Virus record (IMG/VR): IMGVR_UViG_2718218452_000008 | Location: 1 to 38,347 of that record | DNA from: a virus | Lineage: Duplodnaviria > Heunggongvirae > Uroviricota > Caudoviricetes | Direction: 5' to 3' (one strand) | Length of the DNA: 38,347 nt | In this document: positions 175 to 7,630 of the stretch, piece after piece | How the letters are laid out: every line of letters starts with the position of its first letter | How positions within the stretch are numbered: position 1 is the stretch's first letter | Notes under the pieces: model-generated | Databases searched by the model: none | What the model was told of the DNA's origin: nothing | The model's input: the letters and a program-made list of their open reading frames with translations, nothing else | Position numbers and translations under genes: made by a program

Positions 175-227
175 GGGCGGCAGAGCAGTCACGGAGTAAA
201 ACTGATACCGCCAAACGTCACCAGAAA
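175..227 (-). ncRNA. dicF: DicF small regulatory RNA (53 nt)
   Basis: Reverse complement of 175-227 reads TTTCTGGTGACGTTTGGCGGTATCAGTTTTACTCCGTGACTGCTCTGCCGCCC, matching the DicF sequence as I recall it, followed by a T-run. It lies downstream of ydfC on the same strand, as in the Qin dicB operon. Confidence 0.8.
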
Positions 228-2495: not shown

Positions 2496-3441
2496 ACGCC
2501 CACTGGTTATAAACACGCAGCTGGCAATGAAAATTGGCTTAAACGAAGCCATTGTTTTGCAACAACTGCACTACTGGTTGAGAGATACCAACTCCGGCAT
2601 GGAATGTGATGGTGTTCGCTGGATTTATAACACAACGGAACAATGGCTGGAACAGTTCCCATTCTGGTCAGAGTCAACGTTAAAGCGCGCGTTTGCAAGT
2701 CTGAAAACGCTGGGGCTTTTGCGTTGTGAAAAGCTCAATAAATCAAAGCGCGATATGACCAATTTCTACACGATCAACTACGGGAGCGAGCTTTTAGATG
2801 GTGGCAAATTGAGCGAATCCATCGGTTTAAAATGCGCCGCTCCATCAGGTCAAAATGACACGATGGAAGAGGTCAAAATGAAACGCTCCATTGGTTCAAA
2901 ACGACTCAATGTCATCGGGTCAAAATGGCCTGATGATCTTACAGAGAATACAACAGAGATTACTACAGAGAATAAAAAGACTTCTCGTCCGGAAGCTTCG
3001 CAACCGGACCCGCAGACGGTTGAACAGGATTTTTTAACCCGACACCCTGACGCGGTTGTGTTCAGTGCGAAAAAACGCCAGTGGGGCAGCCAGGAAGATT
3101 TGGCGTGTGCGCAGTGGATCTGGGGGCGAATCGTGAGTCTTTACGAGCAGGCCGCCAGCGATGATGGCGAGATTTCGCGACCGAAAGAACCCAACTGGAC
3201 CGCATGGGCCAACGACGTGCGCACAATGCGGATGCTGGATGGCAGAACTCACAGACAAATTTGTGAAATGTTTGGTCGGGTGCAGCGGGATCCATTCTGG
3301 GTAAAAAATATCATGAGTCCGTCAAAGCTTCGCGAAAAATGGGATGAACTGGTTATCCGCCTGGGGCGTTCGTCTGTACAGCGTTGTGTGAATCATATTT
3401 CTGAGCCGGATACCGAAATTCCGCCGGGCTTCAGGGGGTAA
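2476..3441 (+). CDS. Phage replication initiation protein (O-like, N-terminal winged-helix, iteron-containing)
   Basis: N-terminus LLFAERPLVINTQLAMKIGLNEAIVLQQLHYWL... is typical of prophage replication initiators, and the gene contains internal iterons. Start chosen at ATG 2476; the track ORF starts at TTG 2422. Confidence 0.7.
   Translation: MSLLFAERPLVINTQLAMKIGLNEAIVLQQLHYWLRDTNSGMECDGVRWIYNTTEQWLEQFPFWSESTLKRAFASLKTLGLLRCEKLNKSKRDMTNFYTINYGSELLDGGKLSESIGLKCAAPSGQNDTMEEVKMKRSIGSKRLNVIGSKWPDDLTENTTEITTENKKTSRPEASQPDPQTVEQDFLTRHPDAVVFSAKKRQWGSQEDLACAQWIWGRIVSLYEQAASDDGEISRPKEPNWTAWANDVRTMRMLDGRTHRQICEMFGRVQRDPFWVKNIMSPSKLREKWDELVIRLGRSSVQRCVNHISEPDTEIPPGFRG
2824..2929. repeat. Five direct iterons (GGT-C/T-AAAA-T/C-G core) inside the replication initiator gene: candidate origin
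   Basis: Copies start at 2824, 2848, 2871, 2893 and 2918 (spacing 22-25 bp): ggtttaaaatg, ggtcaaaatg, ggtcaaaatg, ggttcaaaacg, ggtcaaaatgg. The arrangement parallels lambda ori inside O. Confidence 0.6.
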
Positions 3442-3481
3442 GTGTTAATTTCTGGTCATGAGGTAATTTTCAGGAGGGCTT

Positions 3482-3904
3482 GTGGCAAAAGTTTTTACAC
3501 AAGAAGAGCGGGAAAAAATTAAAGGGCAGGTTGTTGAACTCGTACGCCGGAGTGGGCGTGAGACGTTACGGCAACTGGAAGTCAAGACAGGTGCGACAAG
3601 ATATCTGATGAGCGTTCTCGCAAGAGAGCTGGTTGCCAGCGGCGATGTATACAACTCTGGTTACGGGTTATTCCCGTCTGAACAGGCGCGTAAGGACTGG
3701 CAAAATGCCCGTAAAAAGCTCTCAAGGGCAAAGCTGAAGGAACCATCTGCGGTTGATCCGGACCTTATCTGGTCATTACCTGACGGAGAAATACGTCGCT
3801 ACGACAGGCGTCAGAACATAATCTGTCGCGAGTGCCGGAAGAGTGAAGTTATGCAGCGCATACTAGCATTCTATCAGGGAAATGCTCGATATTTATTGAA
3901 GTGA
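3482..3904 (+). CDS. Hypothetical protein (140 aa)
   Basis: GTG start 5 nt after a strong AGGAGGG Shine-Dalgarno; normal GC; no recognisable motif. Confidence 0.5.
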   Translation: MAKVFTQEEREKIKGQVVELVRRSGRETLRQLEVKTGATRYLMSVLARELVASGDVYNSGYGLFPSEQARKDWQNARKKLSRAKLKEPSAVDPDLIWSLPDGEIRRYDRRQNIICRECRKSEVMQRILAFYQGNARYLLK

Positions 3905-4156
3905 TGAGATTAAAGTTTATTAGTTCAGATATTGATTGGCTCTTTTGTGGAGTAGGGTAGAGTTAGTGTGTTTGTCTGCTTGGTGCCAGCAGCGGATATG
4001 TTTAACAACAGAAAGCATTCAGCATGGTTAGTGGATTTGCAAAGTGGATTAGGATTTGAGAAACTTTGATGAAGTTGTAAAGCTTGTTTCTATAAAAATA
4101 GAAATTTAACTAATAGTTAAACACACCTCCAGCTTCATTGAAAAGGATTATTAGCT

Positions 4157-5056
4157 ATGATTGATCCACTTATTAGAAACTTACAGAGTGATATTGCACT
4201 ACTCCAGCTTTATATCGCGCAACGCAAACAGGCAGGCTTTCATGACATGGAAAGAATAATTGAGTCATTGACCATCTTTATGTTTCGCGCGCTGAAAATG
4301 GGTGAACTGGTAAACATGAATCAGATTAAAGTTAATTTTCCCGCCATTGATTTAGCTGATAATAAAAACATGATAGCAGTTCAAGTTACTACGAATGCAA
4401 GTCCAGCAAAAATTAAAAAAACTATCGAATCTTTTGAGAAAATAAATGAAATAGGAGAGAGTCTGAAAGATAAATACTCTACTTTATATATTTTTGGTTT
4501 TTGTAAAGCCTCAAGATACCTAACTCCAAGTTATTGTAAAATAATCGACCCCAGCTATTTCGTGAATGAACTTTGCGATAAAGCAGATGAAGATATGGTC
4601 CAGGATATGATTGACGCCATTCGACGCCATCATGATTATACATCATTACATCCATGGAGTGATAAAGATTCACTCGAAATTATACTCAATATTATTAATC
4701 GCAATGCAATAAAACATCGGATGAGTTGCGAAGGCAGTCTGTCTGATATGCTCACTGGTTTAAAAGAAATTAATGAAGTAATTACAAAAGGAACAATTCA
4801 ACGTAAGCAACGTTCAAAATCGATATCTGACTTCAAAGATCAAAGCATGGTGAAATTTATGAGAGGTGTAATGGATGATTTGTCTGTTATTCAAGCCATA
4901 GTGAACAAATCTAAAGTTAACCAAGGTGATATGGTTTATATAAGCCATGAAGATATGATTAATATTGATAAATTAAAAGCTAAAATAGCAAGTGATTCAT
5001 CAGAGATTGCAAGGCTAAATAATATTGATATAACACTAAATGTTGTTGATTTATAA
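4157..5056 (+). CDS. Putative SMEK-domain protein (299 aa), low-GC accessory gene
   Basis: The N-terminal region (NFPAIDLADNKNMIAVQVTTNASPAKIKKTIESFEK...LYIFGFCKA) resembles the SMEK domain as I recall it. The gene is strongly AT-rich relative to flanking phage genes and has an AGGA Shine-Dalgarno. Confidence 0.6.
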   Translation: MIDPLIRNLQSDIALLQLYIAQRKQAGFHDMERIIESLTIFMFRALKMGELVNMNQIKVNFPAIDLADNKNMIAVQVTTNASPAKIKKTIESFEKINEIGESLKDKYSTLYIFGFCKASRYLTPSYCKIIDPSYFVNELCDKADEDMVQDMIDAIRRHHDYTSLHPWSDKDSLEIILNIINRNAIKHRMSCEGSLSDMLTGLKEINEVITKGTIQRKQRSKSISDFKDQSMVKFMRGVMDDLSVIQAIVNKSKVNQGDMVYISHEDMINIDKLKAKIASDSSEIARLNNIDITLNVVDL

Positions 5057-5370
5057 TTGTCGATTTAGCAAAACAGAGAATGCTTTGAAAGTTTCACCGA
5101 GAAATATTTATTGTGAACCTCCTTATTGTTTATCGACTTTTACTCTCCGCTCATTGCAGTACTGTCGGAGAAGGCTACTATGTACAAGAAGCAGCTAACA
5201 TAAGCGAGCATCACTATTGATATTAGGAAGAGTATATAAAAACTTCATGCTGAACCTTACAAAAGTAGGTAAACCGGCAATGGCCTAAGTGGCAGGGTCA
5301 TGTTGATCCGGCACTGCCGAGCTAATAATTAACAAGCAAATCACTCTTTCTAATAATTTGTTGAAATAAA

Positions 5371-6024
5371 CTAAATATGTATATGTTTACCAACAACCAC
5401 ATATGAACTACCTGCTTTGCTCCATGATTTTATTATTTCTAAATTATTATCTGAGCATATTTTACTTACAGTATCCACATCTAATAAACCATAGTAGAAA
5501 GCATTGCGAGAGTTTTGGTATATATACCCATGCAAATGTTTAATACCGCTCTCGTACCTCTTGAAATAAGAACTTTTGTATTGATTGACAATCAGTGCTT
5601 CACCATCACTCTTTAATAATTCTCTAATCGCACTGAGGACTTTGTGAATTGTGGATTCACATGGAATTGCGGAAAGCACGTTTGCGCAAAGTATGAAATC
5701 ATAATGATTTGTTATTTTATCTATATTTTCATAAGAAACAATATTAGCATTCTTATAGTTATTTATCACGTAATCTGGAATCGTGGTTTGTACACCTCTG
5801 ATAATTTGCACTCTTTCTAGTTGTCTTCTGGAATCTAAAAATGTCACAGTTTCAAATTTATTTACTAATTGTTCTGAATATCTAAGTTTTCCACATCCAA
5901 AATCAAGGGCATTGCCATTTTTATTAGTGCTTTCAATCTGTTTACAGAGATAGTTAGATGGCATAGTGTGCGGTTTCGCTGCATTTTCTGAACGTATGTT
6001 TATTCCATTTATTTTGTAATTCAA
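5371..6024 (-). CDS. Class I SAM-dependent methyltransferase (about 217 aa), not DNA-MTase-like
   Basis: Motif I ALDFGCGKLRYS, acidic end of beta-2 (VTFLDSRRQ), post-I ILCANVLSAIP, and LLKSDGEALIV. It lacks DPPY/NPPY and PCQ motifs. Probable TTG start at 6024 (GAGG 6 nt upstream) or 6030; starts 13 bp after the membrane-protein stop. Confidence 0.75.
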   Translation of the reverse strand: MNYKINGINIRSENAAKPHTMPSNYLCKQIESTNKNGNALDFGCGKLRYSEQLVNKFETVTFLDSRRQLERVQIIRGVQTTIPDYVINNYKNANIVSYENIDKITNHYDFILCANVLSAIPCESTIHKVLSAIRELLKSDGEALIVNQYKSSYFKRYESGIKHLHGYIYQNSRNAFYYGLLDVDTVSKICSDNNLEIIKSWSKAGSSYVVVGKHIHI

Positions 6025-6036
6025 AATCAACCTCGT

Positions 6037-6732
6037 TTAAAAAATATTGTTATTGTTAAAGAATTCTTTTATTTTGCTATCAGGTATTTGTCTTACTTGG
6101 CTTTCTGTTCTTGGTTTAACTGATGCTATGAAAATAAGGAAGTCAAATGCGACAAGAGAAATAATCCACAACCAAAGATTAATTAAAGAGCCAGTAACAG
6201 AGAATATATTTGTTAATTTGGCGATACTTATTATTAAAATAGTAACAAATGCGATTACTGTATGTTCAAAGAAAACCCAAAAGTAATAAACTTTGTTCCA
6301 GAAAAGTTCAACGTAATGTTTGTCTTTTAACTCTTTAACTTCTGGGTAATACAGTTTACTCATTACCTTGTGAGATTCATCAGTAGTTAATTTTCTCGTA
6401 ACGCCTGCAATTTTTGCTAATGGTTTAATAATTAAATGACTATCCCACATCTTCCTTATTCCAATAATTTTTGCTACATTATTATGTAGATCTAAAGCTC
6501 CACTAATTACTGACCAAAAAACTGAAGATGCAATTGGTAATATGCCAAAGGTTAATATCCATTTAATAAATTCCTCGTAGTCTTTAACGGGGGGGATATA
6601 CTTGGCATTAATGCCAACCAATGGCATGTAGCCATAAATGACTAATGATAGGTAAAATATAAATGTAGTAATAAAAGTCGCCTTATGGAGCATAGGCAAC
6701 ATTTCATTATAACTCTTTGGTGGTTCTAACAT
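6037..6732 (-). CDS. Predicted 4-TM integral membrane protein (231 aa), first gene of a two-gene operon with the methyltransferase
   Basis: Four long hydrophobic segments (ATFITTFIFYLSLVIYGYMPLVGI; FIKWILTFGILPIASSVFWSVISGAL; YYFWVFFEHTVIAFVTILIISIA; LINLWLWIISLVAFDFLIFIASV). ATG at 6732 has GGAG 7 nt upstream. Very AT-rich. Confidence 0.7.
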   Translation of the reverse strand: MLEPPKSYNEMLPMLHKATFITTFIFYLSLVIYGYMPLVGINAKYIPPVKDYEEFIKWILTFGILPIASSVFWSVISGALDLHNNVAKIIGIRKMWDSHLIIKPLAKIAGVTRKLTTDESHKVMSKLYYPEVKELKDKHYVELFWNKVYYFWVFFEHTVIAFVTILIISIAKLTNIFSVTGSLINLWLWIISLVAFDFLIFIASVKPRTESQVRQIPDSKIKEFFNNNNIF

Positions 6733-7173
6733 TTTACTCTCCAAACACTCAAAAAAAAGCTAATCTTCTATAATAACGAAATTCAGCTGGCACAATTAAA
6801 GATTAATTGCCACCAATTTCTTGATTTTATAATTTTATCTAAATGTTTTTGATTAATCTAGTCCTAAAAGAAACCTACTGCATAAATATTTATGCTGATG
6901 ACCCACTCCCTGTTCGTTAACACATAGCAACGTTAGTAATGCATCCTAAGTGATCAATATTTTTGCTAGCTTCATCTGCTCGCTCAAAGGGAACTATAAT
7001 GTTGGCTTGCGTGTGACTTGGCATGTTTAAAGAAGTGCTGGTGGTGACTGGTTGCTGTTTTCCATTTCCACAGAACAAAATCATAGAAACTATACCCAGT
7101 AGTTGTATTGAATCACTGACGAGACAGCCTCATATTTATCAGGACTGGTGTACGTCCAATACAGGAGGTTGTG

Positions 7174-7263: not shown

Positions 7264-7474
7264 TTTCATATTGGCGAGGTAACGGTAGTTAAGTAGAATT
7301 GCTGCGGGTGCTTGAGGCTATCTGCCTCGGGCATCAACACCAAAGGCAGATAGAGAAAAGCCCCAGTTAACATTACGCGTCCGGCAAGACGCTTAACATT
7401 AATCTGAGGCCATATCTATGCTCTACACACGTAGGTTAGCCTCTTACGTGCCGAAAGGCAAGGAGAAGCAGGCT

Positions 7475-7630
7475 ATGAAGCAGCAAAAGGCGATGTTAAT
7501 CGCCCTGATCGTCATCTGTTTAACCGTCATAGTGACGGCACTGGTAACGAGGAAAGACCTCTGCGAGGTACGAATCCGAACCGGCCAGACGGAGGTCGCT
7601 GTCTTCACAGCTTACGAATCTGAGGAGTAA
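7475..7630 (+). CDS. hok: Hok/Gef-family type I toxin (51 aa)
   Basis: MKQQKAMLIALIVICLTVIVTALVTRKDLCEVRIRTGQTEVAVFTAYESEE is the Hok family signature and near-identical to K-12 HokD/RelF as recalled. The track ORF 7418-7630 extends in frame upstream. Confidence 0.85.
   Translation: MKQQKAMLIALIVICLTVIVTALVTRKDLCEVRIRTGQTEVAVFTAYESEE

What the first reader, a model, noticed from the sequence alone, without database searches (positions are those of the whole stretch)
5371..6732. Two-gene operon: 4-TM membrane protein plus class I SAM methyltransferase in the replication-to-Q hotspot
A predicted 4-TM membrane protein (6732-6037) is followed 13 bp later by a Rossmann-fold SAM methyltransferase (6024-5371) with small-molecule/protein-type motifs rather than DNA-MTase motifs. 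Both are very AT-rich against a roughly 50% GC phage backbone and sit where lambdoid phages carry anti-phage cargo. I do not recognise this pairing as a described defence system. Alternatives are a lipid or quinone modification moron or a toxin-immunity pair.
Basis: partly seen in the sequence, partly recalled or inferred. Interest (0 to 1): 0.85.

Follow-up and report, generated by a model that had tools for sequence, protein, structure and literature searches.

The report
ymfE–ymfD-like membrane protein/methyltransferase prophage cassette
The two genes are real and form an operon, but they are a diverged copy of the uncharacterised ymfE–ymfD pair of the E. coli K-12 e14 prophage: a small inner-membrane protein always found with its own SAM methyltransferase, usually parked beside proven anti-phage genes, with its own function still untested.

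Summary
Window 6732-6037 (-) encodes a 231-aa protein with four transmembrane (TM) segments. Window 6024-5371 (-) encodes a 217-aa class I SAM methyltransferase of the small-molecule/protein type. The two are 12 nt apart, and each has its own Shine-Dalgarno (SD) sequence. They lie in an AT-rich island (about 30% GC) between the replication genes and Q of an E. coli lambdoid prophage.

It also missed that the island's third gene, SMEK (4157-5056), is 99% identical to DS-27, a single-gene anti-phage system validated in 2026.

The pair is an obligate unit. All 31 complete loci retrieved through the methyltransferase, across at least six phyla, carry a YmfE homologue next door on the same strand. 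Gene order varies, both genes are under purifying selection, and GC is always below the flanks.

It sits in cargo slots of lambdoid, e14 and P2-like prophages and a P4-like satellite. Elsewhere it lies directly beside Hachiman, Olokun, Lamassu and type III R-M.

No PADLOC, Pfam, PDB or BFVD match exists for YmfE. The methyltransferase substrate cannot be assigned.

A defence or conflict role is plausible (about 0.4) but unproven. The pair does not appear among DefensePredictor's listed hits in the text I could read.

The parts
6037..6732 (-). ymfE-like gene: 231-aa inner-membrane protein with four TM segments and a conserved cytoplasmic helical domain between TM2 and TM3 (motifs LHNxxSKxxGIRxxWD, YYP, IDxHY, FWxxFE)
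   Evidence: ORF and RefSeq CDS. 60% identity to K-12 YmfE, E 2e-108. AF2 pLDDT 93.8. Hydropathy and positive-inside rule. Family alignments A1 and A2. dN/dS 0.09-0.16.
5371..6024 (-). ymfD-like gene: 217-aa class I SAM-dependent methyltransferase with a TTG start. Invariant motifs are ENAAKP (N-terminal), DFGCGKLRY (motif I), DS (acidic loop), NVLSAIP, VNQxxSSYFK and YYG.
6025..6036 (-). 12-nt intergenic spacer. The GAGG Shine-Dalgarno of the methyltransferase gene (6034-6031) lies in it, so the two genes are probably translationally coupled.
   Evidence: Sequence read directly. The same tight spacing or overlap occurs in homologous loci.
6733..6898 (-). Upstream leader and probable promoter region that travels with the pair, including the SD GGAGAG at 6742-6737
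   Evidence: blastn homology of the cassette ends at 6880-6898 in unrelated prophage backgrounds. Conserved blocks appear in the upstream alignment. No strong sigma-70 consensus was scored.
5290..5370 (-). 3' tail of the two-gene cassette, downstream of the methyltransferase stop
   Evidence: The two-gene homology blocks start at window 5285-5296 in L069, L073 and L074.
4157..5056 (+). SMEK-domain gene, convergent neighbour. It is a separate cassette, not part of the core pair. It is 99% identical to DS-27, a validated single-gene anti-phage system.
   Evidence: Pfam SMEK_N 2e-22, NCBIfam 1e-30, PADLOC Aga_REase 1e-20. 296/299 identity to DS-27 WP_087896215. DS-27 is listed as replicated. It moves together with the pair as a 2.9-kb block, window 3978-6898, in L068, L069, L072 and L076.
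3978..6898 (.). AT-rich cargo island (SMEK plus the ymfED-like pair) inserted between DUF977 and the sok/hokD module of the prophage
   Evidence: GC profile, blastn boundaries, annotation. The whole island is present in 151 of 5426 complete E. coli genomes.

Best explanation
The locus is an autonomous two-gene cargo cassette of the YmfE/YmfD family.

Shown:
- YmfE-like is an inner-membrane protein with four TM segments.
- YmfD-like is a dedicated class I SAM methyltransferase of the small-molecule/protein type.
- The two genes are co-transcribed and probably translationally coupled.
- They are inherited strictly together across phyla and are under purifying selection.
- They sit in mobile-element cargo slots beside proven defence genes.

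Inferred:
- All conserved YmfE motifs (N-terminal PKxYxEML, the helical domain between TM2 and TM3, the FWxxFE start of TM3, the C-terminal QVxQI) face the cytoplasm.
- The two proteins work as a complex at the cytoplasmic face of the inner membrane. YmfE either recruits, activates or presents a membrane-proximal substrate to the methyltransferase, or it is itself the methylation-controlled membrane effector.
- The biological role is most likely protection of the lysogen or host against other phages or mobile elements, that is, a still-untested defence or conflict module. It is expressed from its own promoter, antisense to the phage early operon, and as AT-rich DNA it is probably H-NS-silenced.

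The methyl acceptor is unknown.
For: Homology to K-12 ymfE/ymfD with the same gene order and spacing.

Strict pairing:
- 31 of 33 loci found through the methyltransferase in GTDB species genomes have a YmfE homologue adjacent on the same strand. The two exceptions are cut contigs.
- 27 of 28 IMG/VR contigs also carry both genes; the exception starts inside the pair.
- All 10 loci found through YmfE have the methyltransferase next door.
- Gene order is swapped in five loci, so the linkage is not mere synteny.
- Pairwise identities of the two proteins correlate, r = 0.85.

Selection and foreign origin: dN/dS is 0.09-0.29. GC of the pair is below the flanks in every locus.

Topology: K+R counts are 13 in the central loop and 5 in the C-terminus, against 2 and 0 in the outer loops.

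Cargo slots:
- Lambdoid replication-to-Q region.
- attL end of e14, divergent from lit.
- Just after ogr in P2-like prophages.
- P4-like element carrying a type I-C retron and gop-beta-cII.

Defence systems within two genes of the pair:
- DS-27/SMEK.
- Hachiman in L029 and L021; L011 carries a HamB homologue.
- Olokun in L046.
- Lamassu in L027 and type III R-M in L038.
- That makes at least 5 of 25 non-enterobacterial loci with a complete known system.

A two-gene block with its own 166-bp upstream region recurs in otherwise unrelated DNA.
Against: - There is no experimental phenotype for the pair.
- No PADLOC model matches it.
- It is not among DefensePredictor's predicted or validated genes in the supplementary text I could read, whereas its neighbour SMEK is. 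Some of those files were truncated.
- DS-27 was validated on its own, so the island's defensive value does not need the pair.
- Many distant loci are solitary islets among housekeeping genes.
- No deposited phage genome out of 50,697 encodes YmfE.
- The only published phenotype found is reduced early biofilm in a ymfD deletion.
Confidence: 0.4

Rival explanations
1. A lysogenic-conversion or physiological moron. The membrane-associated methyltransferase modifies a lipid, quinone or small molecule (detoxification or export, in the manner of tehA/tehB), and changes stress tolerance, biofilm formation or envelope properties rather than blocking phages.
Against: All NCBIfam equivalog scores are far below their cut-offs, for example TehB 28-29 bits against 218-303. 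YmfE has no transporter or enzyme family signature and no fold relative. The family is rare, patchy, of low GC and mobile, and it repeatedly abuts defence systems. That pattern is unusual for a metabolic trait.
Confidence: 0.28
2. A toxin-immunity or addiction pair. YmfE is a membrane-damaging toxin held in check by YmfD (or the reverse), and the pair stabilises the mobile element. This could double as abortive infection.
For: The architecture resembles pairs of a small membrane protein and a cytosolic partner such as RexB/RexA. This is an analogy from my own knowledge, not a test. ymfE is occasionally disrupted while the methyltransferase stays intact: insertions in L053 and L064, an IS1 in strain 14EC047, and a frameshift in Bradyrhizobium. 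Toxin-antitoxin modules and hok/sok are neighbours.
Against: The Keio ymfD deletion, with ymfE left intact, grows normally, though the locus may be silent. YmfE conservation is concentrated in polar cytoplasmic motifs rather than in a pore-like surface. Both genes are equally constrained. No toxin-antitoxin family match was found.
Confidence: 0.12
3. An accessory of the neighbouring defence genes. The pair regulates, protects against or counteracts them, for instance as a self-protection or anti-defence function for SMEK/DS-27, Lit, Hachiman and others. On this reading it is not a stand-alone system.
For: The SMEK-plus-pair block, window 3978-6898, is conserved as one unit at 83-87% identity in four unrelated backgrounds. 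All of the roughly 146 E. coli copies of this variant appear to carry SMEK, judging from the counts. The pair lies directly next to several different defence systems.
Against: The partner system differs from locus to locus, and many loci have none. DS-27 protected when cloned alone. One caveat is that the test host MG1655 carries its own e14 ymfED. The pair has its own upstream region and the opposite orientation.
Confidence: 0.1
4. Decaying, functionless prophage remnant.
For: It is found in cryptic prophages and in no isolated phage genome. Occasional disrupted copies exist.
Against: dN/dS is 0.09-0.29. Each protein keeps a set of invariant residues across phyla (3 in alignment A1 of the membrane protein, 34 in A3 of the methyltransferase). 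About 146 E. coli genomes carry the pair at 99% identity or more across the full query. Both AF2 models are confident.
Confidence: 0.03

Closest known systems
E. coli K-12 e14 prophage ymfE (b1138) - ymfD (b1137)
   Same: Full-length homologues (60% and 68% amino-acid identity). Same gene order, strand relation and tight spacing, low GC, prophage cargo position, and a defence gene next door (lit in e14, SMEK here).
   Different: A different prophage and a different slot: the attL end of e14 versus the replication-to-Q region. About 69% nucleotide identity and an unalignable upstream region. The K-12 genes themselves have no assigned function.
tehA/tehB (tellurite resistance: membrane protein plus SAM methyltransferase)
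   Same: An operon of an integral membrane protein and a class I SAM methyltransferase. The Pfam TehB domain is matched above its cut-off.
   Different: The NCBIfam TehB equivalogs score 28-29 bits against cut-offs of 218-303. From my own knowledge, TehA is a 10-TM protein related to SLAC1. No Pfam family, TehA's included, matches any YmfE family member.
Lambda RexA/RexB and other defence systems that pair a small membrane effector with a cytosolic partner
   Same: A prophage-borne two-gene unit expressed in the lysogen, made of a four-TM protein and a cytosolic partner (analogy from my own knowledge).
   Different: No sequence or profile match to any PADLOC model. The cytosolic partner here is an enzyme with an intact SAM-binding site. 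One weak SLATT-type hit (E 0.009) in 1 of 31 family members is not evidence.
Methyltransferase-containing defence systems (R-M, BREX PglX, DISARM, MADS)
   Same: A SAM methyltransferase inside a defence-island context. There is a weak PADLOC mad2 hit, E 1e-4.
   Different: These use DNA methyltransferases with target-recognition domains. This protein is 217 aa, has no (D/N/S)PP(Y/F/W) or C5-type catalytic motif and no target-recognition domain, and its fold neighbours are small-molecule, peptide and tRNA enzymes.
DS-27 (SMEK-domain single-gene defence system; DefensePredictor, Science 2026, PMC13092281)
   Same: It sits in the same AT-rich island 315 bp away, and it moves with the pair in several enterobacterial prophages.
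   Different: The pair also occurs widely without it.

Membership tests
YmfE/YmfD family (e14 prophage pair) | Full-length homology of the membrane protein to K-12 YmfE | tested here: met
   139/230 identical (60%), no gaps, E 2e-108.
YmfE/YmfD family (e14 prophage pair) | Full-length homology of the methyltransferase to K-12 YmfD | tested here: met
   145/212 identical (68%), no gaps, E 4e-113. One database source names a homologue 'ymfD'.
YmfE/YmfD family (e14 prophage pair) | Membrane gene immediately upstream of the methyltransferase gene on the same strand | tested here: met
   12-nt gap here, 0-nt gap in K-12. The genes are adjacent in all complete homologous loci.
Class I (Rossmann-fold) SAM-dependent methyltransferase | Glycine-rich motif I and the acidic residue at the end of beta-2 | tested here: met
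   DFGCGKLRY, with invariant D41, G43 and C44 (G45 is conserved in at least 90%), and the invariant D64-S65 pair. Pfam Methyltransf_12 and Methyltransf_23 pass their gathering scores.
Class I (Rossmann-fold) SAM-dependent methyltransferase | Seven-stranded alpha/beta methyltransferase fold | tested here: met
Class I (Rossmann-fold) SAM-dependent methyltransferase | SAM binding and methyl transfer | not testable with these tools
   Needs biochemistry.
DNA methyltransferase of R-M / BREX / MADS type | Catalytic motif IV, (D/N/S)PP(Y/F/W) or the C5 PC motif, plus a target-recognition domain | tested here: not met
TehB tellurite-resistance methyltransferase | Score above the NCBIfam equivalog cut-off, and a TehA partner | tested here: not met
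   29 and 28 bits against cut-offs of 303 and 218. The partner protein matches no Pfam family.
Any defence system modelled in PADLOC-DB 2.0.0 | Profile match of the component proteins | tested here: not met
   The YmfE-like protein has no hit. Of 31 family members, only one has a hit, at E 0.009. DefenseFinder and newer databases could not be run.
Anti-phage defence system (generic) | Enriched next to known defence systems or in mobile-element defence hotspots | tested here: inconclusive
   At least 5 of 25 non-enterobacterial loci have a complete known system within two genes. Enterobacterial copies lie in prophage or satellite cargo slots beside DS-27, Lit or a retron. No background control could be computed.
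Anti-phage defence system (generic) | Protection against phage when expressed | not testable with these tools
   No published test was found.
Type II-like toxin-antitoxin pair | One partner is toxic and the other neutralises it | not testable with these tools
   The only indirect evidence is that the Keio ymfD deletion grows normally.

The most novel reading that the evidence does not exclude
YmfED is a previously undescribed, phylum-spanning two-gene anti-phage or abortive-infection system. In it, a methyltransferase that does not act on nucleic acids works with a dedicated four-TM partner of a fold not seen in PDB or BFVD. One version is a membrane effector whose state is set by methylation. 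Such an effector could even act as a guard that fires when phage enzymes deplete SAM.
Probability: 0.3. Interest if true: 0.8.

Novelty: new member of a known kind. Interest (0 to 1): 0.5.

Why it matters
ymfD and ymfE are two of the remaining y-genes of E. coli K-12, and they sit next to the classic Lit exclusion gene.

This work gives them a concrete, cheaply testable hypothesis. It shows they form an obligate, mobile module under purifying selection. The module recurs from Enterobacterales to Planctomycetota and Acidobacteriota, directly beside Hachiman, Lamassu, Olokun, type III R-M, a retron and DS-27.

If the pair is defensive, it would add a chemistry to bacterial immunity that none of the known systems compared here uses: a small-molecule or protein-type SAM methyltransferase tethered to a novel membrane protein.

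If it is not defensive, it shows that guilt by association in prophage hotspots can mislead. It also clarifies that the validated defence gene in this island is SMEK/DS-27, not the pair.

Tried and rejected
- A natural YmfE-methyltransferase fusion in Bradyrhizobium (L041/L042) looked like proof of physical coupling. It turned out to be a frameshifted ymfE, with the 3' part in another frame, so I rejected it.
No complex model exists.
- A profile search of PDB sequences with the YmfE alignment found nothing meaningful. The methyltransferase has no PDB sequence hit.
- The SLATT idea rests on one hit at E 0.009 in 1 of 31 members. It is not supported.
- The bioRxiv preprint 10.64898/2026.09.05.749240, on H-NS silencing of antiviral immunity, mentions ymfE 11 times and lit 18 times but could not be opened. 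Phrase probes show 'ymfE and lit' and 'ymfE locus', but no 'ymfD', no 'methyltransferase', and no wording about ymfE deletion or expression. It probably uses ymfE as a locus label for the H-NS-bound lit region.
- Accession searches in the literature found nothing.
- Short contigs labelled Scatousia, Haemophilus and Streptomyces that carry 86-100% identical copies are probably mis-binned enterobacterial DNA. I did not count them as taxonomic spread.
- The viral-contig scan with the YmfE alignment failed because it had no sufficiently conserved stretch.

Full report
**What is there.**
The window is an E. coli lambdoid (Qin/Rac-like) prophage integrated next to tRNA-Ser. The gene order is dicB/dicA/dicC, ydaT, a replication-region gene, DUF977, then an AT-rich island, then sok/hokD, DUF968, rusA, Q, tRNAs, lysis genes and terminase.

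The island has GC 0.28-0.35 against about 0.5 in the flanks. It holds three genes:
- SMEK (4157-5056, + strand).
- On the minus strand, a 231-aa membrane protein (6732-6037).
- Also on the minus strand, a 217-aa methyltransferase (6024-5371).

The membrane gene has ATG 6732 behind GGAGAG. Its TAA stop is followed after 12 nt by the TTG start of the methyltransferase, which sits behind GAGG.

**The two proteins.**
The methyltransferase passes the Pfam thresholds for Methyltransf_12 and Methyltransf_23. Its family shows:
- an invariant motif I, DFGCGKLRY;
- the acidic D64-S65 pair;
- NVLSAIP;
- VNQxxSSYFK;
- YYG;
- an unusual invariant N-terminal ENAAKP.

The membrane protein matches nothing in Pfam, NCBIfam or PADLOC, and only a non-significant hit (E 0.05) in PHROGs. 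Its AF2 model is confident (pLDDT 93.8) but has no fold relative in PDB or BFVD.

It has four hydrophobic segments. The positive-inside rule places the N-terminus, the roughly 65-residue domain between TM2 and TM3 and the C-terminus in the cytoplasm. Nearly all conserved residues lie in those cytoplasmic parts or at the cytoplasmic end of TM3: Y8, H83, R93, D97, Y129, D137, W152 and E156. This is what one expects of a partner for a cytoplasmic enzyme. It is not what one expects of a periplasm-facing receptor blocker.

**It is a ymfE-ymfD homologue.**
One homologue in the protein search was named ymfD. The K-12 e14 prophage carries ymfE (b1138, 234 aa) directly upstream of ymfD (b1137, 221 aa). 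That pair lies at the attL end and is divergent from the Lit exclusion gene. The window proteins are 60% and 68% identical to them over their full length.

Of 5426 complete E. coli genomes, 434 carry a pair of this family: 146 have the window variant, 5 have an 80-90% variant, and 283 have the e14 variant. None is on a plasmid.

ymfD was still called uncharacterised in 2025, and its deletion had no growth defect. The only phenotype I found is reduced early biofilm.

**An obligate pair.**
The membrane family is small: 53 representatives at 50% identity among 1.84 billion proteins.

Adjacency holds in every complete locus:
- Through YmfE homologues, all ten loci fetched had the methyltransferase next door.
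- Through the methyltransferase alignment, 31 of 33 loci in GTDB species genomes had a YmfE homologue adjacent on the same strand. The other two are cut contigs.
- 27 of 28 IMG/VR contigs carried both genes; the exception begins inside the pair.

The hosts include Gammaproteobacteria, Planctomycetota, Acidobacteriota, Dormibacterota, Acidimicrobiia and Gemmatimonadales. Gene order is reversed in five loci. Pairwise identities of the two proteins correlate at r = 0.85. dN/dS is 0.09-0.29. The pair is lower in GC than its flanks everywhere. An apparent fusion in Bradyrhizobium is a frameshift artefact.

**Where it sits.**
blastn shows two cassette sizes:
- A two-gene block, window about 5290-6896, includes 166 bp upstream. 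It recurs at 66-82% identity in otherwise unrelated DNA.
- A three-gene block, window 3978-6898, includes SMEK and recurs at 83-87% identity.

Hosts of the two-gene block:
- P2-like prophages, just after ogr (Providencia, Enterobacter).
- A P4-like element with a type I-C retron and gop-beta-cII.
- e14.

In non-enterobacterial genomes the pair lies directly beside complete known defence systems:
- Hachiman (L029, L021; L011 has a HamB homologue).
- Olokun (L046).
- Lamassu (L027).
- Type III R-M (L038).

That is at least 5 of 25 such loci. Others are flanked by transposases, integrases, resolvases or toxin-antitoxin genes, and several lie among housekeeping genes. No deposited phage genome encodes YmfE.

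**The neighbour is a proven defence gene.**
SMEK is described as a nuclease domain of short-Argonaute systems (abstract of PMC10810196). The window's SMEK protein is 296/299 identical to DS-27, a single-gene system validated and replicated in the DefensePredictor study (PMC13092281).

The ymfED-like genes do not appear in the parts of that study's tables that are held. This is weak negative evidence, because the files are truncated. DS-27 was tested in MG1655, which itself carries e14 ymfED.

**Interpretation.**
Shown:
- a real, constrained, co-transcribed pair;
- membership of the ymfE/ymfD family;
- strict co-inheritance;
- mobile cargo status;
- frequent adjacency to defence systems.

Inferred:
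- the two proteins form a complex at the cytoplasmic face of the inner membrane;
- the module serves phage or mobile-element conflict.

The methyl acceptor is unknown. I put the defence or conflict reading at about 0.4. The other readings are a metabolic or envelope moron at about 0.28, a toxin-immunity pair at about 0.12, an accessory of neighbouring defence genes at about 0.1, and junk at about 0.03.

**Novelty and score.**
The locus is a diverged new member of a catalogued but uncharacterised family, not a newly seen gene pairing. What appears to be new is the comparative picture: obligate pairing across phyla and residence in defence hotspots. I found no paper describing it. Interest is moderate at 0.5: this is a well-defined hypothesis that can be tested in K-12, with real upside if methylation-based immunity is confirmed.

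Noticed in passing
window 4157-5056 (+): The SMEK-domain protein is 99% identical (296/299) to DS-27, a validated single-gene anti-phage system from DefensePredictor (Science 2026).
   Followed up: yes
window 7306-7480 (+) and 7475-7630 (+): A sok antitoxin RNA (Rfam RF01794, 114 bits) and the hokD toxin ORF lie immediately beyond the island. This is a type I toxin-antitoxin module bordering the cargo slot.
   Followed up: partly
window 175-226 (-); 10776-11022 (+); 11796-11968 (+): Rfam also finds DicF sRNA, three tRNA genes downstream of Q, and the STnc100 sRNA.
   Followed up: no
L053 4999-6905; L064 7967-9988; NZ_CP024155 (hit H39): In some E. coli prophages the ymfE-like gene is split by an insertion of about 1.1-1.4 kb, or the pair carries an IS1, while the methyltransferase stays intact. 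This could mean that the membrane gene is costly to carry.
   Followed up: partly
L041 3861-5276; L042 3534-4949 (Bradyrhizobium): A single 471-aa ORF hits both family profiles and looks like a fusion. It is a frameshifted ymfE running into the methyltransferase frame.
   Followed up: yes
L013, L014, L015: Contigs of 2.4-3.0 kb assigned to 'Candidatus Scatousia', a Haemophilus MAG and a Streptomyces isolate carry copies of the E. coli cassette at 86-100% identity. These are probably binning errors or contamination.
   Followed up: no
L012 (K-12 e14) 2868-5589: In e14 the ymfED operon is divergent from lit. A September 2026 bioRxiv preprint on H-NS silencing of antiviral immunity names a 'ymfE locus' together with lit, but the paper could not be opened.
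   Followed up: partly
L005 11058-11960 (-): In the Enterobacter asburiae P2-like prophage, a 300-aa protein with a weak TIR-effector match (PADLOC E 3e-8) lies about 1.7 kb downstream of the pair, next to a CI-type repressor.
   Followed up: no
phages collection (INPHARED, 50,697 genomes): There is no tblastn hit for the YmfE-like protein in any deposited phage genome, although the cassette is common in E. coli prophages. It may therefore reside mainly in cryptic or rarely induced elements.
   Followed up: partly
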